From a virus (taxonomy: Duplodnaviria > Heunggongvirae > Uroviricota > Caudoviricetes), in IMG/VR virus record IMGVR_UViG_2563366976_000013: a stretch of 43,386 nucleotides of DNA; one strand, written 5' to 3'. Numbering within the stretch: the stretch's first letter is position 1; every line of letters begins with the position of its first letter. The notes under the pieces are model-generated. The model saw only the letters and a program-made list of their open reading frames with translations. It was not told the origin of the DNA and ran no database searches. Position numbers and translations under genes: made by a program. Positions 517-17,797 of this stretch are shown in pieces.

Positions 517-531
517 TAATCAGGAGGAGTC

Positions 532-3366: not shown

Positions 3367-3394
3367 ACCCGCAATATTTTGCGGGCTTTTTTTT
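3367..3394 (+). terminator. Rho-independent terminator oriented for plus-strand (antisense to late operon)
   Basis: Stem CCCGCAA/TTGCGGG followed by T8 on plus strand; minus-strand version lacks U-run. Confidence 0.45.
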
Positions 3395-6300
3395 AACGTT
3401 CTTCCAGAGACTGAACCCGCTCTTTTATCTTATCCATTTCTCTGCGCTGCCATGCTGCCTCGATATAGAATAAGAGATCAGGTCTGACCCCCCATCTAGA
3501 TCCTGCTGGCGTTATTTCAACGCGCTCAATGATGTCTTCTATTACCATCACTGGATTATCATCCTCATCAACAATGATGCTCCCGTCATTATCAGTCAGC
3601 GGCATTTCCCTTTGGCCAGTAATGACGTCATCATATACTGCGGGATAATCGTCATAGCAAAGAAAGGCATAGCGGCATGTTGTGCTTTCTTCTTCCATGA
3701 GTCCGTGAGAAATAAGAACATCACGAAGTTGCTGCGCGATTACACCATGATGTATCCTCGCCCCTTCTTCCCCCTTTATAGCGACAGCGTTCAGCCATTT
3801 ATAAGCGATATACCTGACGTCACCCCAGGCATCCAGCAATGCTTCGTCAGGAGAGACCGGCTCTGTCTTTAATGTTCCGTCACTGGTAACCACAGGATTG
3901 GAGCCAAGATAAACTATCGAGAACCTGTTTCCCGGACCACCAAGAGCATTTACATTATCAAGATAAGGTTTAACATCTCCGTTCTCAAAAAGATGTTCGA
4001 GTGCGTTATATACCGCGCGACGTGGAGTACTGCTTCCGGAACCATGCAACGTTATCATTGCACCATCTGCTGAAGACGTTGTTTCACCGCCGCTAACGAT
4101 TAATCTCTGAGCGGTAACATCATCAGACGGTACTTTCTTCGCAATAATGGCGTAATTACCCTCAAGTTTGACTTCCGCGCGAACTTGTCCTGATGTACCT
4201 GCATGGACAGTCAGTGACTGGACGGCAACATCATCTGTGAAATCAACGGGTACAGGAACCGTCCTCACGCCTGACGTCGACATAAAAGTAGGAAGCGTTC
4301 TGTTAGGAGTGGCTCCGTAGACAAAATCCCTTGAAACAAATTCTTCCTGTTTAATTTTCACCCTGAAACAATACAAATCAGCCGGGTGACCATCGTGAAC
4401 ATAAGGATATTTTCTGTTGTTATCCCCTATGCTCCATGGGTTTAGAAAGTCTTCCCCACCGAAAATGTAGTACAGCCAGTTGTCTTTGATACAAACTGAA
4501 CCAACACCAACCGCAGAGTTAACTATTCCGCCCTGATAAATCTGATCAGTAACATTAACCCACTCTACATTATCCAGACTCCACTCATTGACGTTAACTC
4601 TGGTCATAAATGTTCTTGGATAATTTCCTGCATAACGGTTATCAGGTTCTCCTCCTTCCCACTCACCAAATGCGCGCTCACTGCCAAAAATAATCAGCTC
4701 ATCGCCAACTTTGGCAAAAGGAAGGTTTGAGTGATGAACATTATTTGGGAAGCGAAGAGAATTCCATGATGTACCTAAATCAGAGCTTCTGTGCAATGAA
4801 CTACCGGGTTGAGTACTTAATGTCCCCCTGGTCGTCAGATACAGAATGCCATCATAATATTTTACACATGGCTCAGATGCATTCGCCTCATATTCTACAG
4901 GTATGCGTCTGCGAACAAAGCTACCAGGAGAACCGAAAGCATCAGAGAAATAGAGTATCCCAAGCTCGCGTGGACCAATATCACCATTATGGTAGCCAAC
5001 AGCAAAACTGTTATCGCTAATCGTCGCAAAACTGTGAATCTCAGTAACAGGAGTGCTTCCGTCAACAAAAGAAGGAATAGTTCCAAGACTGGTTTTTCTC
5101 CATGGTGACGAGTGAAATGATGTGCCAAAACTCCAGTATCTACCCTCGTTATTCTGATCCACATCCTGGGTATTTTGCGTCGTAACTGTAAAGGTATTTT
5201 TATCAATAACAGTAGTCACCGTCATATTCCCGGTAACACCTGTAACACCAGAGTTTGAGAAGTTGACAAAATCACCAGCAAATAATCCGTGATCAGTAAT
5301 GCGAATATAAGCGACTTGCTGATTTGCTGCTTTCGTTATACCACCATAAACGCGAAGGCTGCGACTCATTGGGCGATCCCACAACTCTGCAACCTGCAGT
5401 TTATTTCCTCTCACGGTCCGCGTCTCAATTACAGCAAAAAGGCGATTTCTGACAACCCCCATACTCATGCAGTGATAGTTAACTGTGGGATAGTTTTTAT
5501 GTAAATCTGTAAGCCATTCCGGCGTTGTCCAGGTCTTCCCGTCATCTCCTGAGCGAACCCATGCAACATGGAGGTTATTTACACCATGGCGGTCTCCAGC
5601 CATAAAAGGCGCATAGATGACATTGTCATATACAAACGTTTTATCCTGCGTCCAGGCGTTGTACCACGGTGTATCTGTAATTTTAAATAACTCTCCCTGG
5701 ATAAAATCTTCAGAAGCATAAAAAAGAGGCTGGCCCGGTATTCTCTCAAATAAAAAACGAGCATTTTTAAATCGACTGACATCCGGAAGAGTTGATACTT
5801 TAAAAGTAAGCCCTAATCCGTCAATTTTATAACCTGGAGATGAGGCTTCAAGGCACGCGCTTATTGCAGTGGAATCGTCATTTATACCATCACCAACAGC
5901 TCCAAAATCTTTGGGGCTAATAGCATCACGCATTTTATCCTGGAACGTTCGGTACACAGCCCCAGAACCATACTGAATAAACCAACCAAAACCACCAACA
6001 ACTCCGGAGATTGCAGCATCGACATAATTACGCATTGAGCGATTATTTACAGCGTCCTGCTCAAATGATGGATCTGCAAGGTTAGAAATTTTGTTTTGCT
6101 TTGCATCGTAATATTTTGCAAGCAAAGATGGTTTCATCAATGCACGTCTGAACCACCCAAAACATTGCTGGATCAGCATCGTCAGGTAGTCAAAGGCATC
6201 TTCATGCACTTCGGGGAAAAATTTTCCCTGATTGCGAAGGTCTGTGTCCTGCACTACATCAAGCACACGATCTATCGTAATTCGCCATCCAGTAGCAAGC

Positions 6301-6512
6301 GGAGACGGAAGAACCACAGAACCGCCACTATAAGTGCCCGCCCCAGTTACCGTATAACCGGTATCCAGAACCAATTCTGTTACGTTTCCGTTCAGGTCAG
6401 ACACCTGAACAACCAGGTCTGATTTTCTGAAAATTCGAAAAGTATACGGAAACGATGTCGTAACGCCGTTACCGGTGTATTCGTTGTGGTCAACTTCGGT
6501 TGAGACCGTCAT
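3393..6512 (-). CDS. Tailspike: endo-N-acetylneuraminidase (endosialidase, K1 polysialic acid capsule depolymerase) with T7 gp17-like N-terminal adaptor and C-terminal intramolecular chaperone domain
   Basis: Long colinear matches to K1-phage endosialidase as recalled from memory (GQPLFYASEDFIQGELFKITDTPWYNAW, TVNYHCMSMGV, C-terminal ARIHHGVIAQQLRDV...CRYAFLCYDDYP); N-terminal region resembles T7 tail-fibre N-domain; RBS GGAG. Confidence 0.85.
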   Translation of the reverse strand: MTVSTEVDHNEYTGNGVTTSFPYTFRIFRKSDLVVQVSDLNGNVTELVLDTGYTVTGAGTYSGGSVVLPSPLATGWRITIDRVLDVVQDTDLRNQGKFFPEVHEDAFDYLTMLIQQCFGWFRRALMKPSLLAKYYDAKQNKISNLADPSFEQDAVNNRSMRNYVDAAISGVVGGFGWFIQYGSGAVYRTFQDKMRDAISPKDFGAVGDGINDDSTAISACLEASSPGYKIDGLGLTFKVSTLPDVSRFKNARFLFERIPGQPLFYASEDFIQGELFKITDTPWYNAWTQDKTFVYDNVIYAPFMAGDRHGVNNLHVAWVRSGDDGKTWTTPEWLTDLHKNYPTVNYHCMSMGVVRNRLFAVIETRTVRGNKLQVAELWDRPMSRSLRVYGGITKAANQQVAYIRITDHGLFAGDFVNFSNSGVTGVTGNMTVTTVIDKNTFTVTTQNTQDVDQNNEGRYWSFGTSFHSSPWRKTSLGTIPSFVDGSTPVTEIHSFATISDNSFAVGYHNGDIGPRELGILYFSDAFGSPGSFVRRRIPVEYEANASEPCVKYYDGILYLTTRGTLSTQPGSSLHRSSDLGTSWNSLRFPNNVHHSNLPFAKVGDELIIFGSERAFGEWEGGEPDNRYAGNYPRTFMTRVNVNEWSLDNVEWVNVTDQIYQGGIVNSAVGVGSVCIKDNWLYYIFGGEDFLNPWSIGDNNRKYPYVHDGHPADLYCFRVKIKQEEFVSRDFVYGATPNRTLPTFMSTSGVRTVPVPVDFTDDVAVQSLTVHAGTSGQVRAEVKLEGNYAIIAKKVPSDDVTAQRLIVSGGETTSSADGAMITLHGSGSSTPRRAVYNALEHLFENGDVKPYLDNVNALGGPGNRFSIVYLGSNPVVTSDGTLKTEPVSPDEALLDAWGDVRYIAYKWLNAVAIKGEEGARIHHGVIAQQLRDVLISHGLMEEESTTCRYAFLCYDDYPAVYDDVITGQREMPLTDNDGSIIVDEDDNPVMVIEDIIERVEITPAGSRWGVRPDLLFYIEAAWQRREMDKIKERVQSLEER

Positions 6513-6616
6513 GTTAAATCTCCAGATAGTCGCAGCACCCGTTGCGCCGCATATCTGGTTATTCTATTACCTGGAAAACCACATATGGATAGAAAGGCTG
6601 TAAATACGAATAGATA

Positions 6617-6631
6617 TTACCTTTCAGGTAA
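6617..6631. promoter_or_regulatory. Operator-type palindrome TTACCtttcaGGTAA
   Basis: Perfect 5-5-5 inverted repeat; same motif family as cI/cro operators. Confidence 0.5.
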
Positions 6632-6668
6632 TTTGCAAAACGTGCTGGATAGCAAACAAATTATTTGC

Positions 6669-6688
6669 TACTGTATAAATATACAGTT
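6669..6688 (+). promoter_or_regulatory. LexA (SOS) box TACTGTATAAATATACAGTT
   Basis: 18/20 match to consensus TACTGTATATATATACAGTA, CTGT-N8-ACAG core intact; 20 nt upstream of ATG at 6708. Confidence 0.7.
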
Positions 6689-6707
6689 ATTGCATGGAGA
6701 AGATAAG

Positions 6708-6965
6708 ATGCAGCAGTATCACTATCCACTGGAAGACGGATTTACCGAAAGGATTCACACGCCGGGAGGCGTCAGGTCACTGGTGGAGGGATCGCACTTG
6801 ATGAAATTACTCCGGGATCTCGATAAGGATGGATTTAATGTCGATGGCCCACTTGCCGAACTGACTGCACTGATTAACTACGTCACCAGCTCACAGATGT
6901 CTATGCAGGATCTGCAAACACATCTCGACTATTGTGCCGAACAATTACGAAAACAAACCAGATAA
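6708..6965 (+). CDS. Small SOS-controlled antirepressor-like protein (standalone version of the Ant C-terminal domain)
   Basis: 85 aa from ATG 6708 with RBS GGAGAAG; aligns with C-terminal about 80 aa of the three Ant paralogs (PL..G..IH.P.GV..L.E.S.LM.LL..L..DG..V.G..AELT....Y......DLQTH..Y). Confidence 0.6.
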   Translation: MQQYHYPLEDGFTERIHTPGGVRSLVEGSHLMKLLRDLDKDGFNVDGPLAELTALINYVTSSQMSMQDLQTHLDYCAEQLRKQTR

Positions 6966-6968
6966 GGT

Positions 6969-7011
6969 TTGCAATTACCAAATGGAGTGCTTATATTTAC
7001 CTTTGCGGTAA
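6969..7011 (+). promoter_or_regulatory. Promoter for ant1 leader with overlapping operator
   Basis: -35 TTGCAA (6969-6974), 17-bp spacer, -10 TATATT (6992-6997), palindrome TTACCtttgcGGTAA 6997-7011 over the start site. Confidence 0.55.
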
Positions 7012-7038
7012 ATTTACATCGCACTCCTCTTGTGCCAT

Positions 7039-7090
7039 AGTAATCAGGCACTGGCAAAATCCAGTGCCGGGATTGGTCTCCCGGATTACT
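7039..7090 (+). ncRNA. Conserved structured leader RNA element upstream of ant1 (three-way junction fold), followed by leader terminator
   Basis: AGTAATC...GATTACT outer stem enclosing hairpins GGCACTGG-caaaat-CCAGTGCC and CCGGGA-ttggtc-TCCCGG; near-identical copy in ant2 leader (11160-11213, minus strand). Confidence 0.45.
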
Positions 7091-7104
7091 ACAGAGGCAC
7101 ATAT

Positions 7105-7124
7105 GCCGCATAAGCGGTTTTTTT
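7105..7124 (+). terminator. Leader terminator/attenuator upstream of ant1
   Basis: Short GC stem GCCGC-ataa-GCGG followed by T7 run; analogous stem plus T7 in ant2 leader. Confidence 0.45.
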
Positions 7125-7278
7125 ATGTGTAAAGCGCACCTATTCTATGGTGGGCTGTGTGGGGGCACCGAAAGGTGCGCCGGGTTCCTTTGTAGCCGGT
7201 AAGACCAACTCTGCACAGTTCACCACCATCTGATTGGTCTCAGCGGTGGTGATTAACCTAACTACAAAGGTGATCGCC

Positions 7279-7971
7279 ATGAATACCAAACCTTCCATCT
7301 TTTCCTTTGAGTCATCCTGCCAGATCCGTATGTTCATGATTGACGGAGAACCTTGGTTTGTCACCAAAGATGTGTGCAATGCTTTGAATATTGATGTTAC
7401 ACAAGCGAGAAAACTTGATAAAAAAGGCTGGAACAAAAAGGGGCTGTATTCAATACAGACCCCTGGTGGAATACAAGAACTATCCATCGTTTCAGAATCA
7501 GGTCTCTACATCCTTATTCTGCGTTGCAAAGAGGCAATGACTGAGGGAACGAGAGCATTCAGATTTCTTGAATGGGTTACAGGCGAAGTACTTCCTCAGA
7601 TCCGCCGCACCGGAAGCTACATTAAAAACTCGCTCCCGCAGGAAGAACGCATAAAGATGGTTGCCGACCAGGTAGCCAACGCCACGGCGTCAGCAGTAAT
7701 GCAGGCGATGAAGATAGAGAACAAAACCTACAGCGCCCCACTGAAGCCCGGCTACCGCAGCCTGATTCATTCGCCGTCTGGTGTTCTCGGCCTGACGGAG
7801 AACTCACTGCTGATGAATCTGCTGAACCAGTTACAGGACGACGGGCACGACGTATCGGGCGCGGCGGCGGAGCTGACCACCATGTTCTGCTACATCGTCG
7901 GTGTGAGCAAATGCCTGCGTGATATCCAGACCCACGCGGAATACATCAACGACAAGGCAGGGTTCTTCTGA
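7279..7971 (+). CDS. Antirepressor paralog 1: Bro-N/KilA-N-type N-terminal domain plus shared Ant C-terminal domain
   Basis: IDGEPWFVTKDVCNAL motif (Bro-N-like); C-terminal 100 aa near-identical to the other two paralogs; start at ATG 7279 with RBS AAAGGTGA (ORF track begins at upstream TTG 7234). Confidence 0.75.
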   Translation: MNTKPSIFSFESSCQIRMFMIDGEPWFVTKDVCNALNIDVTQARKLDKKGWNKKGLYSIQTPGGIQELSIVSESGLYILILRCKEAMTEGTRAFRFLEWVTGEVLPQIRRTGSYIKNSLPQEERIKMVADQVANATASAVMQAMKIENKTYSAPLKPGYRSLIHSPSGVLGLTENSLLMNLLNQLQDDGHDVSGAAAELTTMFCYIVGVSKCLRDIQTHAEYINDKAGFF

Positions 7972-8014
7972 CGGGCGGCGGCACAGGGATGTGCCTTTAA
8001 ATAATTCTGTACGA

Positions 8015-8057
8015 TTGCAGACCGGGGGTGAATAGCGTACTATTACCTTAAAGGTAA
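8015..8057 (+). promoter_or_regulatory. Promoter/operator module (J element) upstream of YafO-like cassette 1
   Basis: -35 TTGCAG, 17-bp spacer, -10 TACTAT ending at first T of palindrome TTACCttaaaGGTAA (8043-8057). Confidence 0.5.
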
Positions 8058-8099
8058 ACCTGTTTTTATTTTATACCTGTAACTTACCGGAGATTAAAG

Positions 8100-8426
8100 A
8101 TGACAAAACTTGGATTCGTGATGAGAGGTCCGGTAAGAAGCGGAACTCATGCAAAGCGTAGCAAGAGTCGTATTTTTACTGGTAAGGTTGTAGCACGTAA
8201 ATCAGCTATTGGCTCGTTCAATAGTGAAAATGCGGCATTGCGCCATATTTTTATCAGCACAAAGCCAAGAGCATCCGCTGATGTGCATACAATGTCTATT
8301 CCTATCACAAAGAATATAAAGCGGATAAAAAAGCTCTCATCTGCAGAATCAAAAGAGATATCTTTCCGCCAGCTTAACTCATTAGAAACGCATATGAAGG
8401 AAGAGGAATTCGATGTTTTTGAGTGA
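8100..8426 (+). CDS. Putative antitoxin/partner protein of YafO-like toxin 1 (basic, no recognised fold)
   Basis: 108 aa, RBS GGAG, overlaps toxin start by 14 nt (translational coupling); weak similarity to partner of cassette 2 (ARKSAIGSFNSE vs ARRSFNGSVE). Confidence 0.35.
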   Translation: MTKLGFVMRGPVRSGTHAKRSKSRIFTGKVVARKSAIGSFNSENAALRHIFISTKPRASADVHTMSIPITKNIKRIKKLSSAESKEISFRQLNSLETHMKEEEFDVFE

Positions 8427-8925
8427 GTATAGCGGGAAGGTTATACCTACTGGTGAGTTTAAAACTGATGACTTTCTGATTTCGCTAAAAGATGCTTTTA
8501 AACAACACTGGCGTCATGGTCATCATCCTGATCTGGGAAAAGATACTCTTTTTGAAAGACCAGAGGAAGTATTAGGCTTCCATCTCAGAAAGGTTCATGT
8601 CAATATTGGTGAATATGCATCATATTCATACTCATGTACTGAACAGTGTTGGGATGAGTGGTCATATGGATTGATTGATGAACAAGGAAATTACAGGCCA
8701 AAACCAACCAGTAACGCATATCTCATATATGCAGTCAATGAAATAAGAGATGCAGCCTTACTAGCTTATTGGGACCCGCCCGCACACACCAAAGCTAACG
8801 CAAAAGTTTGGATGGATTCCGTATTGAATTTCACAAAATTATTTCATGAACGAACGAATACAGCTCCACTTAGTAGAAATGTTTATCCGTGGGATTATTC
8901 GTACAAATCCAAAAAGCCTGCATAG
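8413..8925 (+). CDS. YafO-like toxin domain protein, copy 1 (type II toxin, ribosome-dependent mRNA interferase family, by motif)
   Basis: Motifs W.HGHHPDLGKD..FERP...L.FHLRKVHV and AYLIYAV...DAALLAYWDPPAH resemble YafO from memory; paralog of 9440..9985; RBS AAGAGGAA. Confidence 0.5.
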   Translation: MFLSEYSGKVIPTGEFKTDDFLISLKDAFKQHWRHGHHPDLGKDTLFERPEEVLGFHLRKVHVNIGEYASYSYSCTEQCWDEWSYGLIDEQGNYRPKPTSNAYLIYAVNEIRDAALLAYWDPPAHTKANAKVWMDSVLNFTKLFHERTNTAPLSRNVYPWDYSYKSKKPA

Positions 8926-8935
8926 TAGTTTTTTA

Positions 8936-9155
8936 TGGACGAAACAAAAGTCAGTGCTACACTCATTGACGCCACATTGAGGTGGCTTATAGATGGAAAT
9001 TTCACAATGAAAAAAGCATTTGCTGCACTGTTCGTTTTGTTGTCTCTGGTAGCGTCAACTCAGGCCTTTGCCGGTCGTTGTCAGCACGACAGCGACACTG
9101 CTGCTGACGGCTCCCGCTGCGGTGGGCGTTCTGCGGATTCCCGCCCGGGCGGCGG
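8936..9155 (+). repeat. Direct repeat copy A (220 bp, one mismatch to copy B at 10007..10226)
   Basis: Identical sequence block containing small signal-peptide ORF; seen directly. Confidence 0.9.
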
Positions 9156-9174
9156 CACAGGGATGTGCCTTTAA
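9007..9174 (+). CDS. Small secreted Cys-containing peptide (55 aa) or gene fragment, copy 1
   Basis: Signal peptide MKKAFAALFVLLSLVASTQAFA then about 30-aa mature part with Cys residues; ends inside J junction sequence; weak RBS. Confidence 0.3.
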   Translation: MKKAFAALFVLLSLVASTQAFAGRCQHDSDTAADGSRCGGRSADSRPGGGTGMCL

Positions 9175-9205
9175 ATAATTCTGTACAGATTGCAGGTGAA
9201 TAGCG

Positions 9206-9225
9206 TACTATTACCTCAAGGGTAA
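9206..9225 (+). promoter_or_regulatory. -10 TACTAT plus operator palindrome TTACCtcaagGGTAA upstream of cassette 2
   Basis: Same J module as at 8038-8057. Confidence 0.5.
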
Positions 9226-9285
9226 ACGGATTGGTTTCATTTTTATTAATCCGTGTAATGAACTTATGAGATATGAGGTAATGTC

Positions 9286-9465
9286 ATGCGAAACGAAAAA
9301 TTGCAGATGCGTAGAGCGCAAGCTGCCGCAAGACGTTCTTTCAATGGAAGCGTAGAGTACGTAAAAGTTACTATGACAAAAGATCACGCAAGTCGCGTAT
9401 CCCGCGCTTTCTTTGATTCTCGTAACAATAAGGAAAATTATGAGTTCGTCTGCGTCGCAGAATGA
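9286..9465 (+). CDS. Putative antitoxin/partner of YafO-like toxin 2 (59 aa, below ORF-track cutoff)
   Basis: ATG 9286 with RBS GAGGT 8 nt upstream; overlaps toxin 2 start by 26 nt; manual translation MRNEKLQMRRAQAAARRSFNGSVEYVKV... Confidence 0.3.
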   Translation: MRNEKLQMRRAQAAARRSFNGSVEYVKVTMTKDHASRVSRAFFDSRNNKENYEFVCVAE

Positions 9466-9985
9466 TAAAAATCAAATTGTCAGATATAAGGGTCGAGTAT
9501 TGCATACGCAAAATTTCTCGGCCCTTTGTGCATCTGATCTTGAGCTGAAGAAAGTATCTGATGCCTTTACCCAGTATTGGAAAACGGGATACCATCCATC
9601 TCTTGGTAAAGATGCTGCATTTGCTCGTCCGACAGAAATGCTTAAACTAAATGTCAGGCATACTCATGTCGATAACCAAGACTATATTCCAGAAGATAGT
9701 GATAAAAAACACACTGGTAAAAAATCATCTTGGGATGCATGGAAAAATATAGCGTCTGTGCAAGTAAAATGCATACCAACAAGTGATTGCTTTTTAGTTT
9801 ATTCGGTAAATCACAATCGTGATGCGCTGGTTATGTTTTTTGTTGACGCAGATGCCCACAACATAACTGAGCAAGAAGAGTTTAAAGAGGCAGCAATCAC
9901 TATCAGTTATCAATTCTTTGAGAAAACAAAAACAGAACCAATGCCTTTAGAAGAAGATCTTTTTTCTGATAAATGGAAGGAATAG
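9440..9985 (+). CDS. YafO-like toxin domain protein, copy 2
   Basis: Motifs W.TGYHPSLGKD..FARP...L.LNVRHTHV and CFLVYSV...DALVMFFVDADAH; start at ATG 9440 with RBS AAGGA; followed by terminator. Confidence 0.5.
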   Translation: MSSSASQNDKNQIVRYKGRVLHTQNFSALCASDLELKKVSDAFTQYWKTGYHPSLGKDAAFARPTEMLKLNVRHTHVDNQDYIPEDSDKKHTGKKSSWDAWKNIASVQVKCIPTSDCFLVYSVNHNRDALVMFFVDADAHNITEQEEFKEAAITISYQFFEKTKTEPMPLEEDLFSDKWKE

Positions 9986-10005
9986 CCCGCAGCGCGGGCT
10001 TTTTT
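9984..10005 (+). terminator. Rho-independent terminator after toxin 2
   Basis: AGCCCGC-agc-GCGGGCT stem followed by T5. Confidence 0.6.
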
Positions 10006-10006
10006 G

Positions 10007-10226
10007 TGGACGAAACAAAAGTCAGTGCTACACTCATTGACGCCACATTGAGGTGGCTTATAGATGGAAATTTCACAATGAAAAAAGCATTTGCTGCACT
10101 GTTCGTTTTGTTGTCTCTGGTAGCGTCAACTCAGGCCTTTGCCGGTCGTTGTCAGCACGACAGCGACACTGCTGCTGACGGCTCACGCTGCGGTGGGCGT
10201 TCTGCGGATTCCCGCCCGGGCGGCGG
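10007..10226 (+). repeat. Direct repeat copy B
   Basis: 220 bp, one mismatch vs 8936..9155. Confidence 0.9.
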
Positions 10227-10239
10227 TGGCATTCGTTAA
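10078..10239 (+). CDS. Small secreted Cys-containing peptide, copy 2 (variant C-terminus)
   Basis: Same signal peptide and mature region as copy 1; differs only in last 5 residues. Confidence 0.3.
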   Translation: MKKAFAALFVLLSLVASTQAFAGRCQHDSDTAADGSRCGGRSADSRPGGGGIR

Positions 10240-10312
10240 AAACAAGGCCGCGAAAGCGGCCTGTGACATGTCACGATAGTTTCGTTTTGCACATCCCTGT
10301 GCCGCCGTTCTG

Positions 10313-10969
10313 TCAGAAGAACCCTGCTTTGTCGTTGATGTATTCCGCGTGCGTCTGGATATCACGCAGGCATTTGCTCACACCGACGATGTAGCAGAAC
10401 ATGGTGGTCAGCTCCGCCGCCGCGCCCGATACATCGTGCCCGTCTTCCTGCAACTGGTTCAGCAAATTCATCAGCAGTGAGTTCTCCGTCAGGCCGAGAA
10501 CACCAGACGGCGAATGAATCAGGCTACGGTAGCCGGGCTTCAGTGGGGCGCTGTATTCTTTTTTGTCTTCCAGCTTGATCGCCTCCATAATGGCGGGCAT
10601 GAAGCCTGACAAGACCTTCTCCACTTTTGTTTCTTGTTGTCTTAAACGTTTCTCGCATTCAATGAAGTAGCGTCGCACCTGGCGACCTTTTTCGTTACGC
10701 TCGACCATCGCCAGCTCTTTGGCTGTATCAAGGGTGAGGTGGTACTCTTTGCGGTTGTGGCCGCCTCTACCAGATGTTTGCTTTCCCAAATTGGAAAGCA
10801 AAATATAGTCTTGATTTTCAATGAATTCGTATTCTGATATGCGATTTGTAATCCATGCTGCAAACACCTTTTTAACACCTAAAAAAGCGTGCAGATCGCG
10901 GGCATTACAAAGTAGGGCTGTTTCGTTAGATATAGTGCCGTTGAATACGGGGATGAGTTGAGCGTTCAT
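10313..10969 (-). CDS. Antirepressor paralog 2: AntA-type N-terminal domain plus shared Ant C-terminal domain
   Basis: N-terminus [23 protein letters not shown], middle [20 protein letters not shown]; C-terminus near-identical to ant1 and ant3; RBS GGAGACG. Confidence 0.75.
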
Positions 10970-11125
10970 GATGGCGTCTCCACTTAGCGAATTACATCAC
11001 CACCGCTGAGACCAATCAGATGGTGGTGAACTGAACGGAGTTGGTCTTACCGGCCTAAGTGGTACCGGCGTCCTTTCGGACCCCCATTCAGCCCACCATA
11101 ATTCTGGCATGACTGTGCTATACGC

Positions 11126-11285
11126 ATAAAAAAACCACGTCTGGCGTGGTATGCGCCACTTAGTAATCCGGGAGACCAATCCCGGCACTGGATTTTGCCA
11201 GTGCCCGATTACTATGGCACAAGAGGAGTGCGATGTAAATTTACCGAAAAGGTAATGATAAACGCTAAGAAATATTAAAATCAAC
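11126..11285 (-). promoter_or_regulatory. ant2 promoter, operator (11241-11255), structured leader (11160-11213) and leader terminator (11126-11150)
   Basis: Mirror image of ant1 control region with near-identical structured element; palindrome TTACCgaaaaGGTAA. Confidence 0.5.
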
Positions 11286-11402
11286 CATATTTGGTTAATG
11301 CGTATAAAAGAGCCAGCAGCGAGAAATTGTGCCGCGACGTAAAATAACGAGCATCTGCTGGCTTACAACCAGCGATGTTTCAAATTTGTCACTATTATCA
11401 AC

Positions 11403-11750
11403 GTGCCATTCCACGGCGCAGAGCTTTATGTTGTCAATCACAACGGCGAACCGTATACCCCAATGAAACCTATCGTTGAGGGAATGGGGCTAGACTGGAA
11501 ATCTCAACATAAGAAGATTTCTCAACGCTTCTCGAAGGGTATGGTGGAAATCACCATACCTTCTGCCGGTGGGGTGCAAGCCATGATTTGTATGGCTTTA
11601 CGAAAATTGGCAGCTTGGTTGAACAGCATCAGCCCTAACAAAGTCCGTCCTGAAATCCGCGAAAGTATTGAAACATCAACCGTGTCGATATCGATACGGT
11701 TGATTATGACGGTAACTTATTGCCGTGTGTCCTATTTCTCCCACCACTAA
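11403..11750 (+). pseudogene. Probable remnant of an antirepressor N-terminal domain gene (truncated)
   Basis: GTG start; first 90 aa look like a conserved phage antirepressor N-domain (FHGAELYVVNHNGEPYTPMKPIVEGMGLDW), then low-complexity tail; near-palindrome at 11677-11702 at the break. Confidence 0.35.
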
Positions 11751-12047
11751 CTAATTATATTTGTCTTTAAAAATCTCATGGAATGATTGAGAGTAAGACT
11801 TTCCATACTTCAAATAACATTCTTCATCCAACTTTCTTAATGAACTTCGAACCTGTTCGTGGCATACAGCAAAAAAAACAAGTCCGCCGCCTATTAATAC
11901 CCCTATTGATATTGGGTTCGCAACATCCCATAAAAAATCGGCTAACAGAGCAAATACCCCACCGCCGCCAATAAATGCCCCTATAGCTCGGTTCGTTTTA
12001 GCTTGCTCATAGCGTCTCTCTAACTCACTAAACTCTTTAATATCCAT
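11751..12047 (-). CDS. Small two-TM glycine-zipper membrane protein (candidate superinfection-exclusion/moron protein)
   Basis: 98 aa, RBS AGAGGTG, AT-rich, GAFIGGGGVFALLADFLW and GVLIGGGLVFFAV segments; directly follows ejection-protein gene. Confidence 0.5.
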   Translation of the reverse strand: MDIKEFSELERRYEQAKTNRAIGAFIGGGGVFALLADFLWDVANPISIGVLIGGGLVFFAVCHEQVRSSLRKLDEECYLKYGKSYSQSFHEIFKDKYN

Positions 12048-12065
12048 ATAAGCACCTCTATAAAA

Positions 12066-15000
12066 TTACTTCATCACCGGATCCACCTGGTTTATTAGTG
12101 GCGCAATCCAGAACAGGTTATTGCCGGGTATCAGGGTTCGGACATTATGCACAATACGATCACCGGCATCACCATTCAACACTCCTGAGGTCACATCAAT
12201 GATGCTATCCGCAAGACCAAATGACGGTCCGAATAGAGATCCTACGAATCCACGACTGGCATACCTGGACTGTGTGCCAGTGCCAAATAAAGCCCCCAGC
12301 CCAACAGCACCACCAGTCGCCTTTTCAGCCATGTTGTTATATTCCATCAATGGCCCAAGAATACCGGATCTATCTATACCCTCAAGCACCAGCTTCTCTG
12401 GTGACCAGTCAACATTTTTCCCTTTCGATGCTTCTTTAAGCGCATAGACCAGTGAGCCAAGAGCAATCTGAAATGCAGTGCCATAATAAAATTGCGCAGT
12501 TCCTTCCTGTAACCCACCAAGTAGCGCACGGTTGTATGAAGCCGTTGTGAATGATTTAAACTGAAATATCGTTCGCCCCATTGGAGTACTCGCCCATAAA
12601 GGTGTGTCACCAATACCGGGGGTGATGATAGTGTTATTAACGTCTTTCAGAACCGCTGACTGGAATACTCCGGCAACGTACTGATCGTCCCATTTATCAA
12701 AGTTACCAATGTGCCATCCATCAATTACCTCACCATGTTTCTCGAACTCACTGCGAATACGCGCAGCCATATTGTCGTTGATACCGAGTTTTGCCAGGCG
12801 GCGTGCAGGAAATGCACCGGACAAAATACCGTCTGAAATAACCATTCCGTTCATGGATTTGTTTATGTCATTAAAGCGATCCATGAGTGTCAGCTTGCCG
12901 AAGGCATCAGTAATTCGCTCCATTCCGGCTTCGACTGCTGTTGTCCTGGAAGAGCTGTCAACAAGATCACCAATTGCACGAGAGCGTGAATGCAGTACAG
13001 TTTCCAGTCCGATACCCATCTTCAACATCTCTTCTTTGCTGGCCTTAAATGCCGGTGATTGGGATATCTGAGAAGCATAGCCTTTCATGGTGTTACGGAA
13101 ACCATTAACCATAACCCCTCTGGCCAGATCTGGAATAGCTGATACTGTCATTCCACCGAGTTTGGTCGTGAAGTTCACATCCCGCAGAAAAGCGCCAGCA
13201 CGAACAAAAAACGAAGACGGATCATCAGGCATCCCATATGTACCAACAAGACGATCGCGTAATGCTGTTATGTCTCTGAGATCATTTGCTCTTGATTTTG
13301 AAAGTCTGGACTGTTCTTTCCGTAATTCCTTTTCGTACTTTCGCATTAATGAATCGAGTTTACCCTGAGGAACAACTTCACCATTGCTCTCATAACGTGC
13401 TTTCAGATTTGCCACACTTTCGTCATATTTCGCCTTTATTTTTTCAGGCACTTCCCGTAACAGACTGTCATATTCGTCCTCAATTAATTGCAGACGCTCA
13501 GTCATAGTTCGTTTGCCAAATGTTCTCGTCAACTCAATTTCTGCTGCCGCTTCACGGATATGACGTTGCAGCACGTAATTCACATCACTTTCAAGATAAT
13601 CCCTGATAAGACTATCAGGAACATTTAATGTTCTTTCTTTCGTACTACCTGCGGCTTTTACAGAAAATACGCTGACAAAATCCTGTGGAACCTTAGCACC
13701 AGTAATTTTATTAATTACGATATCTGCTGCAATTTCAGCATCCTCAGGAACCAGTGTTTTATTTCCTCTCGACCACCAGTCAACCAAAATACGTCGAAAT
13801 TTATCGCGTTCACTGATTATTTTTCCAACTTTATATATGCGTGGGAAATAGCTTGCCTGGCCTAATGCTTTCAGTTCTTCATCTGGCGGCAATAAACCAA
13901 GCTTTTGCATTTCAACTTTCACCCGATTTAATACAGTTCGCATCGCCTGCGCCGTTTCCTGAACAACAGGATTAGCATGCACATCACCGCTTCGCATAGC
14001 ATTCCCAACCTGCTGACGAAATGAATCAAAACTCATGTCACCACCATCAGCTTTATACTTTGCGTATGCCTGTTTATTTCCGACAACAACAGCAGCTTCT
14101 TCACGCTGCCATCCACGTGTACGGGTTTCTACAGCTACCGGTGTTTCAATCCCCCTTTCATTTCCTTTAAGGGTGAAATTATTTTCGGCTAACTCCAGCG
14201 TTGTTTTTCGCACTGTCCTGGACGGAGACTCCATTAACCTTGTCAAAGGAGTAAGATAGCTCCCTGCTTTCCATGCAGCCTTTCCAACCACCCCACCAGA
14301 AACAGGGGTTAAATCATCCAGAGTCGCTGTATCAATTTTCATAGCACCAACACTACCACCATCGGAAAGCGAAGCGGCAGCCCTGTCAGTCACTGATGTA
14401 ATGCTCATATTATCAAGAGCATCAGCAACCTCACGTGTGGCTGCAGCCCGGACGGATGGCGAAAGCGCAACACCAGCACTGGCAAACACGCCGCTCATTA
14501 TCGCACCCGCTGCAACGTGAGCGGCACTTTCACCCCATGAGCGTGTTATTTGCTGATTATTCAGTACAACCTCGCTTAATGCAGTACCGGCAGCACCAAT
14601 CGCAATCTGTGAGCCAATACGCGCCAGTGCCCCTCCTTGAGCACCTGGGATAAACATTGACGCAACAGTAACCGGGTCAAAAAGCATCGCTGTTGCACTG
14701 GCAATTCCACCAGCTAAGCCTGCTTCAGAGATAAAACGCCGATCTTCATTTTCATCATCTATCTGCTGCTTAATCCACGCTGTTTCTTCTGGCGAGCGGG
14801 AACCTGCAAATTTCGCACCCCAGTATTCATAGCCGTGCAACTCATTTTTATCAGCATATGGGTTATAACCCTCGACCGGTTCAAACTGTCTGGCAGGACG
14901 GAAAAAACCAGCCAGAATATTGTTCTGTCGTATTGCTGCGGCAAGCAATGAAGGCTCTTTTTGGCGAGGCTCAGGGTTCTTACCTTCTGGCGGATGCACA

Positions 15001-15089
15001 TCAAAACTCTGTTCATCAGGTTCAGGAATGGCGCGACCAGCAGAAATAAATCCGTTATTGTTTGATTCAGATACAGGATAGAACGGCAT
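12066..15089 (-). CDS. Large internal virion/DNA-ejection protein (T7 gp15/gp16-class)
   Basis: 1007 aa, position after other internal virion proteins and before tail fibre region; Gly/Ala-rich segments. Confidence 0.55.
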   Translation of the reverse strand: MPFYPVSESNNNGFISAGRAIPEPDEQSFDVHPPEGKNPEPRQKEPSLLAAAIRQNNILAGFFRPARQFEPVEGYNPYADKNELHGYEYWGAKFAGSRSPEETAWIKQQIDDENEDRRFISEAGLAGGIASATAMLFDPVTVASMFIPGAQGGALARIGSQIAIGAAGTALSEVVLNNQQITRSWGESAAHVAAGAIMSGVFASAGVALSPSVRAAATREVADALDNMSITSVTDRAAASLSDGGSVGAMKIDTATLDDLTPVSGGVVGKAAWKAGSYLTPLTRLMESPSRTVRKTTLELAENNFTLKGNERGIETPVAVETRTRGWQREEAAVVVGNKQAYAKYKADGGDMSFDSFRQQVGNAMRSGDVHANPVVQETAQAMRTVLNRVKVEMQKLGLLPPDEELKALGQASYFPRIYKVGKIISERDKFRRILVDWWSRGNKTLVPEDAEIAADIVINKITGAKVPQDFVSVFSVKAAGSTKERTLNVPDSLIRDYLESDVNYVLQRHIREAAAEIELTRTFGKRTMTERLQLIEDEYDSLLREVPEKIKAKYDESVANLKARYESNGEVVPQGKLDSLMRKYEKELRKEQSRLSKSRANDLRDITALRDRLVGTYGMPDDPSSFFVRAGAFLRDVNFTTKLGGMTVSAIPDLARGVMVNGFRNTMKGYASQISQSPAFKASKEEMLKMGIGLETVLHSRSRAIGDLVDSSSRTTAVEAGMERITDAFGKLTLMDRFNDINKSMNGMVISDGILSGAFPARRLAKLGINDNMAARIRSEFEKHGEVIDGWHIGNFDKWDDQYVAGVFQSAVLKDVNNTIITPGIGDTPLWASTPMGRTIFQFKSFTTASYNRALLGGLQEGTAQFYYGTAFQIALGSLVYALKEASKGKNVDWSPEKLVLEGIDRSGILGPLMEYNNMAEKATGGAVGLGALFGTGTQSRYASRGFVGSLFGPSFGLADSIIDVTSGVLNGDAGDRIVHNVRTLIPGNNLFWIAPLINQVDPVMK

Positions 15090-17797
15090 TATTTAGATCC
15101 CCACGAAAAGTAATCTTTAAATTTGTCCATACGTTCGTTATGCAGGCGCTGATACTGCTCATCCAGAGCACGATGCTTGTCTTTGAAGTTTTGTATAGCC
15201 TGTCCACGCATAATTTCTTCCTGCTCGTGCTGCTCCCGTTCCTGCTGCATTTTCTTATAAGGTTCCCAATCTTCTAGTGATGGCCCCCAGCGCATCAGTC
15301 TTCCATGCTTGTCATAAAATAAATCATCCCTCGTAATACCATCTTTATCTTTTGTTCTGATCACAACTGAATAAAGCTTATCTCTCGGAGTTGATAAATC
15401 AGGAACAAGAATCAACTCACCTCCAACCAGTGAGCGTGGTGTATTCAGTCCCAATGCACCAGCCTCAGTTGAAGGTCGGTTAAATGAAGGAGCTGGTTTA
15501 TGCAAGTCATCGCCATACATGATTTTTTCTTTTTCAGCTTTCCATTGCGCTGCAATCCAGCCTGACGGCCCATATTGATAAAGCGCCTCCGGTGCATATT
15601 TCATAAACTGTGCTTCCCCGTTGACCTCGCTGATACTCCAGGTGCGGGCTATCTGCTGGTTGGTCATTTGCTTCGCTACGTCAGCGTTACCACCAGCAAG
15701 GCGATAGTTAACGTCATACAGCATCTGATAGTCATTGCGAAAGAGCGCTGCTTCCGGCGTCTGGTCATCCGCAGACGGATCCCAGCGAAGCCAATGAGCC
15801 ATATTGCTGACAGCAGAATTGGCTGCGCTGTCACGCTCTTTTTTGTATTCTCTTGTACTCTGAACAGATGAGAGCTGCGCCCTTAGTGCATCTGTCTGGT
15901 TGTATGTCTTACTCTGCGCTTCCACAATAGCAGCATCAGAAGACATCCCTGCATCAGTTAGTTGCTTAACAGTCAGATAAAAACCCTGCATATCCTTCGG
16001 CATATTTCCAATAGATGCATTGTCTGTTTCATATAACCGACTAAACAGTTCCGCCGCATTTTTAACCACTTCCTGATTGCTGGATCGGGATACTGCTGAA
16101 AGCTGCGTGATGACCTGCGAAGGCATTATGCCAGTCTGAGCCACAAGCCGAACAACCCCATCATGAGTGGAGGCATCATTAATACGAAAGTTCTGCGCCA
16201 TTTCTGTGTAATCAGCAGCTTTCTGCATTGACTTGTTGCTTGGGTCTAATTTTTCACCTATTGTCAGCGCCTCATTGAATCTGCGTGAATCCCGTTGCGC
16301 CTGAATTGCTTCATTTGATCTCTGAAGCAATGCAGACAATTTTCCGTAAGCATCGAGTTTTAACGCATAGTGAGGATCGTTAACCTCAGGCTTCACTTTC
16401 TGCATTTCTTCTTGCTGCTGAGAAGGAGGCAAATACTGAATTGCCTGGAATATTCTCGCGTTATCAATCGCTATATCCAGTTGATTGATTATTTTATCTG
16501 CGTTTTTTCCATACCCCCTGATGATGGTCTCCTGAGCCGGTATATAATCTGGAACCTCACCGTTATATAGCTGGGCCATGGTGTTATTAATAGCTGGCTC
16601 AAGCTGTTCTAATATTAACTTCCTTTGCTTTTCTATCTGACTATTAGCAAGGTTATCTATTTGATAAATAGTCAGCGGATCCATTCCAGTTTTATTTTTT
16701 CTATATCGGGAAAGCCACCCTTGTGTTTCTGATGGAAGATTTCGGATAAATTCTTCTTCTGATATTTCACCTTTACGCGGATCACCGACTTTGGCGATCA
16801 GTTTATCCACGTTACCCATCCCCCAGTTATATGCTGCTCCGGTCAATATTTCTGAGCCGTACTTACCATACAGTTGATTTACATAGTCACTGGCAAGCAT
16901 TTCATGCTGTTGTTCGTCCGTAGGGTTGTATTCAACGCCACGTTTGGCCGCCAGTTCTTTCCCTGTGCCCGGCATTAACTGGTATTTCCCCTGGGCCCTC
17001 TCTCCAGAAGATGTTTTCGGTCCTTCAAGAATACTACCATCAGGATTAAAGTGACGATCACCTGATTCAACAAGGCGTATGGCACGCATGTCCATGCCTC
17101 CAGAATCATTTTTCTGAAACTGACCATTTAACCATCCTTCCGGGTTAGCAGCGGCATAATTCTTCGCCCGCATTTCTGTGGCACTGCGATCATCACTTTC
17201 TATTTCTTCCAGAATGCGTTCTTGTGACCATCCCCTGGCTGCTCCATATCTGGCAATGGCTACCATTCTGGAATTTCTGGCTAAAGTGGCAGTTTGCGGG
17301 TCATTCCAGGCATCCGCTTCATTTTGTATCCATAATTTTCTCGTTGCCTGATATTGCTCATCTTCATAGGCATTTGTCTGCCCTATCTCATGTCTGAGAA
17401 CTCCAGTACTGAACTGAATTTTCTGTGTTCTGGCTTGTTGCAAAAACATATTTCTTGCTGCTTCATCAGTCAATGAAGCAGCTATTTCTTCCACATCCTG
17501 ATCAAATCCAGATATGTACTCTTGCCCCTTACCAATCGCATTTTTGCCTTGTTGTGCATAAAAACCGGTTTGAGGGTTATAAAGACGTTCATTGCTGCGC
17601 TGATTAAGCTGAAGTATGGCATCCTGAGACAATGCAACATTCGCTTTCTGCCTGGCTTCACCATATGCCACCGCATACTGATCTGCGACATTCGCCAGCA
17701 CCTGACCTGCTTGAGGAACATCGAAGATCTGAAAACCACCGGTTTGCACACCACGACTTTGCACCTGGCGTCCGGATGTAGTAGGAACAACAGGCAT
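15089..17797 (-). CDS. Internal virion protein with soluble lytic transglycosylase (SLT) domain
   Basis: 902 aa; SLT-like motif GERAQGKYQLMPGTGKEL...AAYNWGMGNV; position in ejection-protein block. Confidence 0.65.
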   Translation of the reverse strand: MPVVPTTSGRQVQSRGVQTGGFQIFDVPQAGQVLANVADQYAVAYGEARQKANVALSQDAILQLNQRSNERLYNPQTGFYAQQGKNAIGKGQEYISGFDQDVEEIAASLTDEAARNMFLQQARTQKIQFSTGVLRHEIGQTNAYEDEQYQATRKLWIQNEADAWNDPQTATLARNSRMVAIARYGAARGWSQERILEEIESDDRSATEMRAKNYAAANPEGWLNGQFQKNDSGGMDMRAIRLVESGDRHFNPDGSILEGPKTSSGERAQGKYQLMPGTGKELAAKRGVEYNPTDEQQHEMLASDYVNQLYGKYGSEILTGAAYNWGMGNVDKLIAKVGDPRKGEISEEEFIRNLPSETQGWLSRYRKNKTGMDPLTIYQIDNLANSQIEKQRKLILEQLEPAINNTMAQLYNGEVPDYIPAQETIIRGYGKNADKIINQLDIAIDNARIFQAIQYLPPSQQQEEMQKVKPEVNDPHYALKLDAYGKLSALLQRSNEAIQAQRDSRRFNEALTIGEKLDPSNKSMQKAADYTEMAQNFRINDASTHDGVVRLVAQTGIMPSQVITQLSAVSRSSNQEVVKNAAELFSRLYETDNASIGNMPKDMQGFYLTVKQLTDAGMSSDAAIVEAQSKTYNQTDALRAQLSSVQSTREYKKERDSAANSAVSNMAHWLRWDPSADDQTPEAALFRNDYQMLYDVNYRLAGGNADVAKQMTNQQIARTWSISEVNGEAQFMKYAPEALYQYGPSGWIAAQWKAEKEKIMYGDDLHKPAPSFNRPSTEAGALGLNTPRSLVGGELILVPDLSTPRDKLYSVVIRTKDKDGITRDDLFYDKHGRLMRWGPSLEDWEPYKKMQQEREQHEQEEIMRGQAIQNFKDKHRALDEQYQRLHNERMDKFKDYFSWGSK

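What the first reader, a model, noticed from the sequence alone, without database searches (positions are those of the whole stretch)
11751..12047. Small glycine-zipper membrane protein directly after the ejection-protein gene
A 98-aa two-TM protein with low GC sits 18 nt downstream of the largest internal virion protein gene. This is the position occupied by the injection-blocking exclusion gene sieA in P22, and the size and topology resemble T4 Imm-type exclusion proteins. It is a candidate superinfection-exclusion moron rather than a virion component.
Basis: inference. Interest (0 to 1): 0.5.

Follow-up and report, generated by a model that had tools for sequence, protein, structure and literature searches.

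The report
Small membrane protein gene after ejection-protein gene
A real, conserved but dispensable 98-residue inner-membrane protein gene sits at the very end of a prophage's virion-core operon; it could be a new kind of injection-blocking protein, but nothing tested here shows what it does.

Summary
ORF 11751-12047 (minus strand) encodes a 98-aa protein with two hydrophobic helices. It has a good ribosome-binding site, 38% GC, and starts 18 nt after the 1007-aa gp16-like internal virion protein gene.

It belongs to a small family, PHROG 21905 (function unknown). The family has about 26 representatives among 1.84 billion proteins, from E. coli, Citrobacter, Cronobacter, Serratia and Proteus prophages.

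- **Position:** in every context read, the gene lies directly after a gp16-like core gene on the same strand. No promoter-like site precedes it, and a terminator often follows.
- **Composition:** it is always more AT-rich than its neighbours.
- **Dispensability:** near-identical prophages, phage TL-2011b and the isolated phage EC.W1-9 all lack it.
- **Conservation:** the invariant residues (K83, Y85, S88) lie in the C-terminal tail, predicted cytoplasmic. The TM1 glycine run is not conserved.
- **Homology:** none to SieA, T4 Imm, HK97 gp15 or holins.
- **P22 analogy:** only partial, because sieA is convergent to gene 16 and has its own promoter.

My best guess, at about 0.3, is a membrane-anchored blocker of gp16-type DNA entry. 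A non-essential partner of the ejection proteins, a lysis-timing protein or another membrane function remain open.

The parts
11751..12047 (-). CDS of the 98-aa small membrane protein (PHROG 21905). Predicted N-in/C-in helical hairpin: TM1 about residues 22-40, TM2 about 45-62, with a conserved C-terminal tail LDxxCYxKYGKxYxxS predicted to be cytoplasmic.
   Evidence: ORF. PHROG match at E=1e-67. Hydropathy. AF2 with 19 sequences gives pLDDT 79 and helices 3-40, 45-81 and 89-97. Conservation and K+R distribution. Only synonymous changes among E. coli copies.
12048..12065 (-). 18-nt spacer between the gp16-like stop codon and the small ORF's ATG. It holds the Shine-Dalgarno GAGGTG (12053-12058). 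There is no promoter or terminator here.
   Evidence: Sequence. Promoter and terminator scans.
12066..15089 (-). 1007-aa gp16-like internal virion (ejection) protein gene, the last large gene of the virion-core operon. Its last 51 nt (12066-12116) travel with the small ORF into a different prophage background (MCJCHV-1 type).
   Evidence: phrog_342 at E=7e-208. Synteny with the T7 gp14-family and SLT proteins. The 51-nt remnant.
11676..11703 (-). Imperfect palindrome TCAACCGTGTCGATATCGATACGGTTGA, 47 nt after the stop codon. It is a possible weak terminator closing the operon, and it lies inside the block conserved in all 38 E. coli copies.
   Evidence: Fold (the whole 111-nt stretch has z=-1.7, so not decisive). 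Alignment. Clear intrinsic terminators occupy this place in L005, L007, L008 and L024.
11403..11750 (+). Truncated, convergent antirepressor remnant (P22_AR_N domain only). It ends base-to-base against the small ORF's stop codon. Homology to an intact ant gene stops at about 11665, which marks the distal edge of the small-gene cassette.
   Evidence: Pfam P22_AR_N at E=7e-32. The CUS-3 ant match ends at query position 766. RefSeq annotates it as incomplete.

Best explanation
**Shown.**
- This is a genuine gene for a roughly 100-residue protein with two hydrophobic helices.
- By the positive-inside rule, both ends are predicted to lie in the cytoplasm.
- The invariant positions (K83, Y85, S88, plus L73 and C77) lie in the C-terminal tail, not in the membrane helices.
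- The gene is an accessory cassette. It occupies the last slot of the virion-core operon (gp14-, gp15- and gp16-like genes) in temperate podophage prophages of Enterobacterales.
- No promoter-like site of its own was found, so it would most simply be read as part of the late transcript.
- It is AT-rich relative to every phage that carries it, and it is dispensable.

**Inferred, and the most likely single mechanism.**
- The hairpin anchors the conserved tail at the inner face of the cytoplasmic membrane.
- There it interferes with the channel that gp16-type ejection proteins of an incoming related phage must build across the inner membrane.
- That would make it an injection-blocking exclusion or immunity protein. 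It would work like P22 SieA, T4 Imm or HK97 gp15 without being related to any of them.
- Expression would come with the late genes. Any expression in the lysogen would have to come from a weak promoter or read-through not visible in the sequence.
For: - **Membrane hairpin with cytoplasmic ends.** Hydropathy shows two hydrophobic cores. K+R counts in all 19 members are 1-5 at the N-terminus, 0-1 in the loop and 5-11 at the C-terminus. The AF2 model has pLDDT 79 and shows a hairpin.
- **Constant adjacency to the ejection-protein gene.** It follows the gp16-like gene in E. coli (two backgrounds), Citrobacter, Serratia, Cronobacter, Proteus and 14 of the 15 IMG/VR loci (the 15th carries a nonsense mutation).
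- **Independent of the gp16 allele.** The identical 98-aa protein sits behind gp16 versions that are only 30-42% identical to each other. It is absent behind >=99% identical ones. This fits a factor aimed at incoming phages better than a cognate structural partner.
- **Dispensable.** TL-2011b and the isolated phage EC.W1-9 lack it.
- **Foreign composition.** In GC-rich hosts its GC3 is 0.35-0.47 against 0.59-0.67 for the upstream gene.
- **Found only in prophage-type contexts.** No tblastn match for three divergent members in 50,697 phage records.
- **Precedent.** Injection blockers lie next to the genes of the DNA-delivery proteins they act on. P22 sieA lies next to gene 16, and escape mutations map to gp16 and gp20 (PMC10883804). 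The HK97 gp15 moron lies co-oriented just before the tape-measure gene.
- **Parallel with SieA.** SieA's conserved motif is also predicted to be cytoplasmic (PMC10883804).
Against: - No promoter-like site lies at a consistent position in the 200 nt upstream in nine contexts, and the gene starts 1-18 nt after the upstream late gene. An exclusion protein would be expected to be made in the lysogen, as SieA is from its own promoter.
- There is no sequence or profile similarity to any known exclusion protein or defence model.
- The periplasmic loop is only 4-8 residues.
- Conserved gene order down to 17% identity could equally mean a working partnership with gp16 in the producing cell.
- No experiment of any kind exists for this family. 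Every database name is 'hypothetical protein', and no paper mentions WP_001555166.
Confidence: 0.3

Rival explanations
1. It is a non-essential partner of the ejection proteins in the producing cell or in the particle. It would be made together with gp16 and do one of three things: hold gp16's membrane-seeking segments in check at the membrane, help load the core, or be packaged and ejected as a minor part of the inner-membrane channel.
For: It always lies directly after the gp16-like gene, on the same strand, with a 1-18 nt gap and no promoter. The order is kept down to 17-29% identity. In L023 it appears to have moved together with its gp16 gene into another gp16 type. The conserved part is predicted to be cytoplasmic, where newly made gp16 is.
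Against: It is absent from 42 of 46 E. coli prophages with the same gp16 allele. It is also absent from TL-2011b and from the plaque-forming phage EC.W1-9. The identical protein serves behind gp16 proteins only 30-42% identical to each other. Its composition is foreign to the operon it sits in. None of the cultured relatives has it.
Confidence: 0.2
2. It is a lysis-timing protein: a class II holin-like or antiholin-like hairpin made late that tunes when the membrane is permeabilised.
For: The protein is small, has two TM helices, is predicted N-in/C-in and has a lysine-rich C-terminal tail. It has a GxxxG in TM2 in 15 of 19 members. It appears to be expressed late. In the Serratia prophage it occupies the slot between the gp16-like gene and the terminase genes. 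This resembles where T7 has its holin gp17.5, after the gene 17 that follows gene 16.
Against: Every carrier read to that region already has holin, endolysin and spanin genes elsewhere, next to each other (window 1289-3086). There is no match to any Pfam or PHROG holin family, and the hhalign probability against T7 gp17.5 is 0.6%. The invariant residues are in the soluble tail while TM1 is free to vary, the opposite of what I would expect for a holin (from general knowledge, not tested here). The gene is never adjacent to an endolysin.
Confidence: 0.1
3. It is some other lysogeny-associated cargo acting on the host membrane. Examples are a small membrane toxin or abortive-infection trigger, or a modulator of a host inner-membrane protein, unrelated to DNA entry of podophages.
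For: It has cargo-like composition and a presence/absence pattern. It borders a region full of other cargo: YafO-like toxin ORFs, small membrane 'moron' ORFs and antirepressor fragments. In Proteus and in L025, further secreted or membrane cargo ORFs follow it on the same strand.
Against: There are no PADLOC or toxin-family hits. Its strict link to one slot beside gp16-like genes is unexplained by a generic host-directed role. It has no visible promoter for expression in the lysogen.
Confidence: 0.15

Closest known systems
P22 SieA (inner-membrane injection blocker; Leavitt et al. 2024, PMC10883804)
   Same: Both are inner-membrane proteins encoded beside the last ejection-protein gene, at the edge of an antirepressor (immI-like) region that separates the core genes from the tailspike gene. 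The conserved motif is predicted to be cytoplasmic in both. Both are accessory in their phage group.
   Different: SieA is 162-164 aa with three predicted TM helices, lies on the opposite strand to gene 16 and has its own promoter. This protein is 98 aa with two TM helices, is co-oriented and has no visible promoter. There is no homology (hhalign 0.3%). The ejection proteins concerned are T7 gp14/15/16-like, not P22 gp7/20/16.
HK97 gp15 moron (exclusion protein acting on DNA entry; Cumby et al. 2012, recalled from my own knowledge because the paper is not held in the library)
   Same: Both are small membrane proteins encoded inside the late operon on the same strand, immediately beside the gene of the DNA-delivery protein, with a terminator after them. 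Both are absent from close relatives.
   Different: gp15 is 62 aa with one hydrophobic segment and is described as having its own promoter (my recollection). It precedes, rather than follows, the delivery-protein gene. There is no homology (hhalign 0.65%).
T4 Imm
   Same: Both are small (83 aa against 98 aa) with two hydrophobic segments. Imm is annotated as changing the membrane so that superinfecting DNA stays in the periplasm.
   Different: There is no homology (hhalign 2.3%; no Pfam hit). Imm belongs to a lytic phage and sits among DNA-metabolism genes. It has almost no N-terminal soluble part and has a basic inter-helix loop, so its orientation may differ.
Class II holins (phage 21 S, T7 gp17.5)
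   Same: Size, two TM helices, a charged C-terminal tail and apparent late expression.
   Different: It is not next to an endolysin gene, and carriers have separate holins. There is no family match. Conservation is concentrated in the soluble tail.

Membership tests
PHROG 21905 (function unknown) | Full-length match to the family profile | tested here: met
   E=1.2e-67, residues 1-98 on profile positions 1-98 of 98. All 19 divergent relatives hit the same PHROG.
P22 SieA family (types A-C) | Sequence relationship, including the FxRYPxEAxxFNK motif | tested here: not met
   hhalign probability 0.3%. The motif is described in PMC10883804 and is absent from the 98-aa sequence.
P22 SieA family (types A-C) | About 160-200 aa with 3-4 TM helices | tested here: not met
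   98 aa with two hydrophobic cores, against three in SieA.
P22 SieA family (types A-C) | Own promoter, transcribed against the late operon, expressed in the lysogen | tested here: not met
   Co-oriented with and 18 nt after the core gene. No promoter-like site on its strand. P22's arrangement is shown. Expression itself is not testable here.
P22 SieA family (types A-C) | Blocks DNA injection by related phages | not testable with these tools
   Needs plating, K+ efflux and DNA-entry assays.
T4 Imm (Pfam Imm_superinfect) | Match to the family | tested here: not met
   No Pfam hit at E<=0.1. hhalign probability 2.3%.
Moron (Hendrix-type extra gene in a late operon) | Present or absent between otherwise near-identical phages | tested here: met
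   4 of 46 E. coli genomes with the same gp16 allele carry it. It is absent in TL-2011b and EC.W1-9.
Moron (Hendrix-type extra gene in a late operon) | Base composition unlike its neighbours | tested here: met
   GC is 6-22 points below the upstream gene in nine contexts. In GC-rich phages GC3 is 0.35-0.47 against 0.59-0.67.
Moron (Hendrix-type extra gene in a late operon) | Own promoter upstream | tested here: not met
   No promoter-like site close to the gene or at a consistent position within 200 nt in nine contexts. A consensus scan cannot exclude weak promoters.
Moron (Hendrix-type extra gene in a late operon) | Terminator downstream | tested here: inconclusive
   In the window there is only an imperfect palindrome without a clean T-run. 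Clear hairpin-plus-T-run sites follow in L005, L007, L008 and L024. In L025 and L027-L032 another gene follows instead.
Glycine-zipper membrane proteins (Pfam Gly-zipper families) | Match to a glycine-zipper family; conserved (G/A/S)xxxG repeats | tested here: not met
   No Pfam hit. TM1 GxxxG occurs in 2 of 19 members. A single TM2 GxxxG occurs in 15 of 19.
Class II holin | Two TM helices, N-in/C-in, charged C-terminus | tested here: met
Class II holin | Encoded with the endolysin; match to a holin family | tested here: not met
   The lysis cassette lies elsewhere (window 1289-3086). No holin family is hit.

The most novel reading that the evidence does not exclude
PHROG 21905 is a new family of inner-membrane exclusion proteins aimed at the T7-type (gp14/15/16-like) ejection channel. 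It would use a conserved cytoplasmic K-Y-S tail to stop the gp16-like protein from completing DNA entry. It would be the first such blocker known for this type of ejection apparatus, and it is carried widely by E. coli prophages: 34 of the 38 carrier genomes found here have the MCJCHV-1-type prophage, and the exact protein is on >=1000 contigs.
Probability: 0.25. Interest if true: 0.6.

Novelty: new variant of a known kind. Interest (0 to 1): 0.35.

Why it matters
How the gp14/15/16-type ejection proteins cross the inner membrane is poorly understood. A small protein that blocks or partners with gp16 would give a genetic handle on that step, because escape mutants would map the contact. P22 SieA did exactly this for P22 gp16 and gp20.

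The gene is also common in E. coli genomes. The exact sequence is on at least 1000 contigs. If it excludes phages, it would matter for phage susceptibility of those strains.

If it is only a dispensable late membrane protein, it is one more uncharacterised prophage gene.

Tried and rejected
**Family and defence-model libraries.** Pfam, NCBIfam and PADLOC gave nothing for the small protein or its Citrobacter relative. Scanning 19 members against Pfam gave only scattered hits at E>0.006 to unrelated membrane DUFs.

**Solved structures by sequence.** The best PDB sequence match was E=0.21, which is noise.

**Structure prediction and fold search.**
- AF2 with 3 sequences was poor (pLDDT 59). With 19 sequences it was usable (pLDDT 79).
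- Foldseek against BFVD and PDB returned only generic helical hairpins, with no hit at E<=0.001.
- The best BFVD hit was an unnamed 106-aa viral protein (E=4e-3), possibly a family member.

**Profile comparisons.** Comparisons with SieA, Imm, HK97 gp15 and T7 gp17.5 were all negative.

**Locus searches.**
- With 5 sequences, the species-representative genome scan found nothing.
- IMG/VR gave 15 loci.

**Cultured phage records.** tblastn of three divergent members against 50,697 records found no match.

**Promoter scans.** All were negative at any consistent position.

**Literature.** Nothing on this protein and nothing on exclusion against internal-virion-protein phages. The HK97 gp15 paper is not held.

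**Ideas rejected.**
- The overlapping plus-strand ORF 11783..11974 (63 aa) has no support.
- A spanin or Spackle-like periplasmic inhibitor of the SLT domain is unlikely, because the periplasmic loop is only 4-8 residues.
- P0017 (1285 aa) in the exhaustive search is a repeat-driven false hit.

Full report
**1. What the window is**

The window is an E. coli prophage with host flank.
- Positions 1-1071 encode the host yfgH- and yfgI-type proteins.
- On the minus strand come an Rz-like gene, a GH19 endolysin and two holin-like genes (1289-3086), then a 1039-aa tailspike (3393-6512).
- An accessory region rich in antirepressor fragments and toxin-like ORFs occupies 6585-11750.
- From 12066 upward runs a long, tightly packed minus-strand structural operon.

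Its last genes are, in order:
- a T7 gp14-family protein (17797-18363);
- a 902-aa SLT-domain protein (15089-17797);
- a 1007-aa protein matching phrog_342, 'internal virion protein with endolysin domain'.

The closest cultured phage is TL-2011b, which is 98% identical over the 3' part of the 1007-aa gene.

**2. The observation**

ORF 11751..12047 (minus strand) is 98 aa.
- It starts 18 nt after the stop codon of the 1007-aa gene.
- GAGGTG lies 5 nt before its ATG.
- Kyte-Doolittle profiles show two hydrophobic cores, about residues 22-40 and 45-62. They are separated by WDVANP.
- GC is 38.4%.

All of this matches the finding.

The gene is real.
- It matches PHROG 21905 end to end at E=1e-67.
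- The exact protein is recorded on at least 1000 contigs.
- Among the E. coli copies I read, all seven distinct nucleotide differences are synonymous. One copy has a nonsense mutation.

**3. The family**

A word-indexed search found only close relatives plus a 59%-identical Citrobacter protein.

An exhaustive HMMER search of 1.84 billion representatives found 26 proteins at E<=0.001.
- The full-length members are 98-112 aa.
- The rest are fragments, plus one repeat-driven false hit.

Named sources are E. coli, Enterobacter, Citrobacter, Cronobacter, Serratia and Proteus, always as 'hypothetical protein'.

Conservation in the 19-sequence alignment:
- K83, Y85 and S88 are invariant.
- L73 is 95% conserved, C77 84%, G53 89% and G49 79%.
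- The signature is LDxxCYxKYGKxYxxSxxDI in the C-terminal tail.
- A single GxxxG in TM2 occurs in 15 of 19.
- Lys+Arg counts are 1-5 at the N-terminus, 0-1 in the loop and 5-11 at the C-terminus in every member. This predicts both ends in the cytoplasm.

AF2 with the 19-sequence alignment gives pLDDT 79. It shows two long helices (3-40 and 45-81) forming a hairpin, plus a short third helix.

**4. Genomic context elsewhere**

In every place I could read, the family member lies directly after a large gp16-like ORF of 824-1157 aa, on the same strand.
- The loci are Citrobacter L004, Serratia L005/L006, Cronobacter L007, Proteus L008-L013 and the IMG/VR loci L018-L032 (L022 carries the nonsense mutation).
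- The gap is 1-18 nt, or a short overlap under the ORF caller's start choice.
- T7_gp14 and SLT-type genes usually lie upstream.

The one exception in spacing is the MCJCHV-1-type E. coli prophage.
- There, a 282-aa ORF intervenes.
- The small gene is preceded by 77 nt that include the last 51 nt of the 1007-aa gene.
- This is a recombination scar showing the cassette moved from one background into another.

No sigma-70-like site lies at a consistent position within 200 nt upstream in nine contexts.

What follows the gene varies.
- Clean hairpin-plus-T-run terminators follow the stop codon in L005, L007, L008 and L024.
- In the window there is only an imperfect palindrome at 11676-11703.
- In Proteus loci L027-L032 and in L025, another co-oriented cargo ORF follows. 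It is a signal-peptide protein in the Proteus loci and a multi-TM protein in L025.

**5. Accessory nature**

- Of 46 E. coli genomes that carry the same allele of the 1007-aa gene over at least 80% of my probe, only four keep homology through the stop codon into the small gene. In the others listed, homology breaks 3-4 nt after the stop codon, as in TL-2011b.
- Thirty-four further genomes have the small gene in the MCJCHV-1-type prophage.
- EC.W1-9 carries the MCJCHV-1-type gp16 and the 283-aa gene but lacks the small gene. It was reported as a newly isolated podophage from sewage.
- Three divergent family members have no tblastn match in 50,697 phage records.
- The slot after gp16 holds unrelated genes of unknown function in relatives.
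- In all nine contexts the small gene is 6-22 GC points below the upstream gene. In the GC-rich phages the difference persists at third codon positions (0.35-0.47 against 0.59-0.67), so amino-acid composition alone does not explain it.

**6. Comparison with P22**

- In P22, sieA does abut gene 16 and is followed by mnt, arc and ant, then the tailspike gene. The window likewise has antirepressor material between the core genes and the tailspike gene.
- In TL-2011b the corresponding region contains a 113-aa ORF that weakly hits phrog_795 (E=2e-4). That PHROG carries the same product description ('partition protein ATPase') that the P22 record gives to mnt.
- However, sieA is on the opposite strand to gene 16 and has its own annotated promoter. 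It is 162-164 aa with three predicted TM helices (PMC10883804).
- The ORF here is co-oriented, has no visible promoter and is 98 aa.
- Profile comparisons with SieA, T4 Imm, HK97 gp15 and T7 gp17.5 give probabilities of 0.3-2.3%.
- The better positional precedent is the HK97 gp15 moron, which is co-oriented and lies immediately before the tape-measure gene with a terminator after it.

**7. What it most likely does**

Shown: it is a dispensable gene for a two-helix hydrophobic hairpin protein, laterally mobile, with no visible promoter of its own. Its conserved part is the tail predicted to be cytoplasmic, and it is tied to the slot next to gp16-like genes.

From here on I am inferring.

*The pattern of constraint.* A variable TM1 and an invariant soluble K-Y-S tail argue for a membrane-anchored binder rather than a pore.

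*Against a cognate structural partner.* The identical protein sits behind gp16 proteins that are only 30-42% identical to each other. It is also missing behind gp16 alleles that are at least 99% identical. Both points argue against a cognate structural partner and for a cargo function.

*The candidate.* Among cargo functions, a block to gp16-type DNA entry is the most economical.
- Known injection blockers are small inner-membrane proteins.
- They sit next to the genes of the delivery proteins they act on.

*The main objection.* There is no visible way to express the gene in the lysogen. I put this reading at about 0.3.

*Rivals.*
- A non-essential gp16 partner in assembly or ejection: 0.2.
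- Another membrane-directed cargo function: 0.15.
- A lysis-timing protein: 0.1.
- The remainder is unassigned.

**8. Novelty and score**

The family is catalogued (PHROG 21905, RefSeq hypothetical proteins) but has no described function, and I found no paper on it.

If it blocks injection, it would be a new family doing a known kind of job against a type of ejection apparatus for which I found no described blocker.

As it stands, this is a well-delimited and testable candidate, not a surprise. Interest is 0.35.

Noticed in passing
window 6986-7972 and 10312-11266: Large inverted duplication in the accessory region: arms of 257, 106 and 59 nt at 94-95% complementarity. It places two antirepressor-type genes (7234-7971 on the plus strand, 10313-10969 on the minus strand) in opposite orientation around the toxin and moron cassettes.
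   Followed up: partly
window 8929-9155 and 10000-10226; also 7972-8012/9146-9186: A 227-nt direct repeat at 99% identity. It duplicates a small 'membrane associated protein' moron ORF (phrog_3117/14503). Each copy follows a YafO-toxin-like ORF (8413-8925 and 9413-9985; the second hits Pfam YafO_toxin at E=1e-5). This looks like a tandemly duplicated cargo module.
   Followed up: partly
window 11403-11750 (+): Antirepressor pseudogene retaining only the P22_AR_N domain. Its reading frame ends on the base next to the small ORF's stop codon. This truncated ant plus the small ORF form one 416-nt block at 98-99% identity in all 38 E. coli carriers, whatever lies upstream.
   Followed up: yes
L023 6306-6590: Downstream of the small gene lies a 94-aa ORF. 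It resembles the C-terminal end of the Serratia-type (L005/L025) gp16-like protein (...QEYFSPGYLRKMEKRARSQFGKSYWWRP...). This suggests that a gp16-plus-small-gene block replaced most of a different gp16 type.
   Followed up: no
window 11860-11880 (T8 run inside the ORF); proteins P0002, P0003, P0005, P0006; L022: Several database variants are frameshifted at T- or G-runs. One (P0002) is an in-frame deletion between the two GGCGGCGG repeats that removes TM1 and the loop. One IMG/VR copy (L022) has a nonsense codon at G55. These are either decay of a dispensable gene or homopolymer sequencing errors.
   Followed up: no
window 12037-12066 (+): The only promoter-like site near the gene is on the opposite strand (TTAATA-18 nt-TAAAAT, 9 of 12 matches). 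It overlaps the small ORF's start and points antisense into the gp16-like gene. The same site is present in the MCJCHV-1 prophage.
   Followed up: no
L027-L032 6288-6602; L025 6293-6613: In Proteus prophages a 104-aa ORF with a signal peptide starts inside the small gene's stop codon (ATGA overlap). In L025 a 106-aa multi-TM ORF (phrog_3075) follows. So the end of the core operon collects further envelope-directed cargo genes.
   Followed up: partly
window 1-1071: The host flank encodes yfgH (itself annotated as a 'glycine zipper 2TM domain-containing protein' in RefSeq) and yfgI. The prophage sits next to yfgI in every E. coli genome examined.
   Followed up: no
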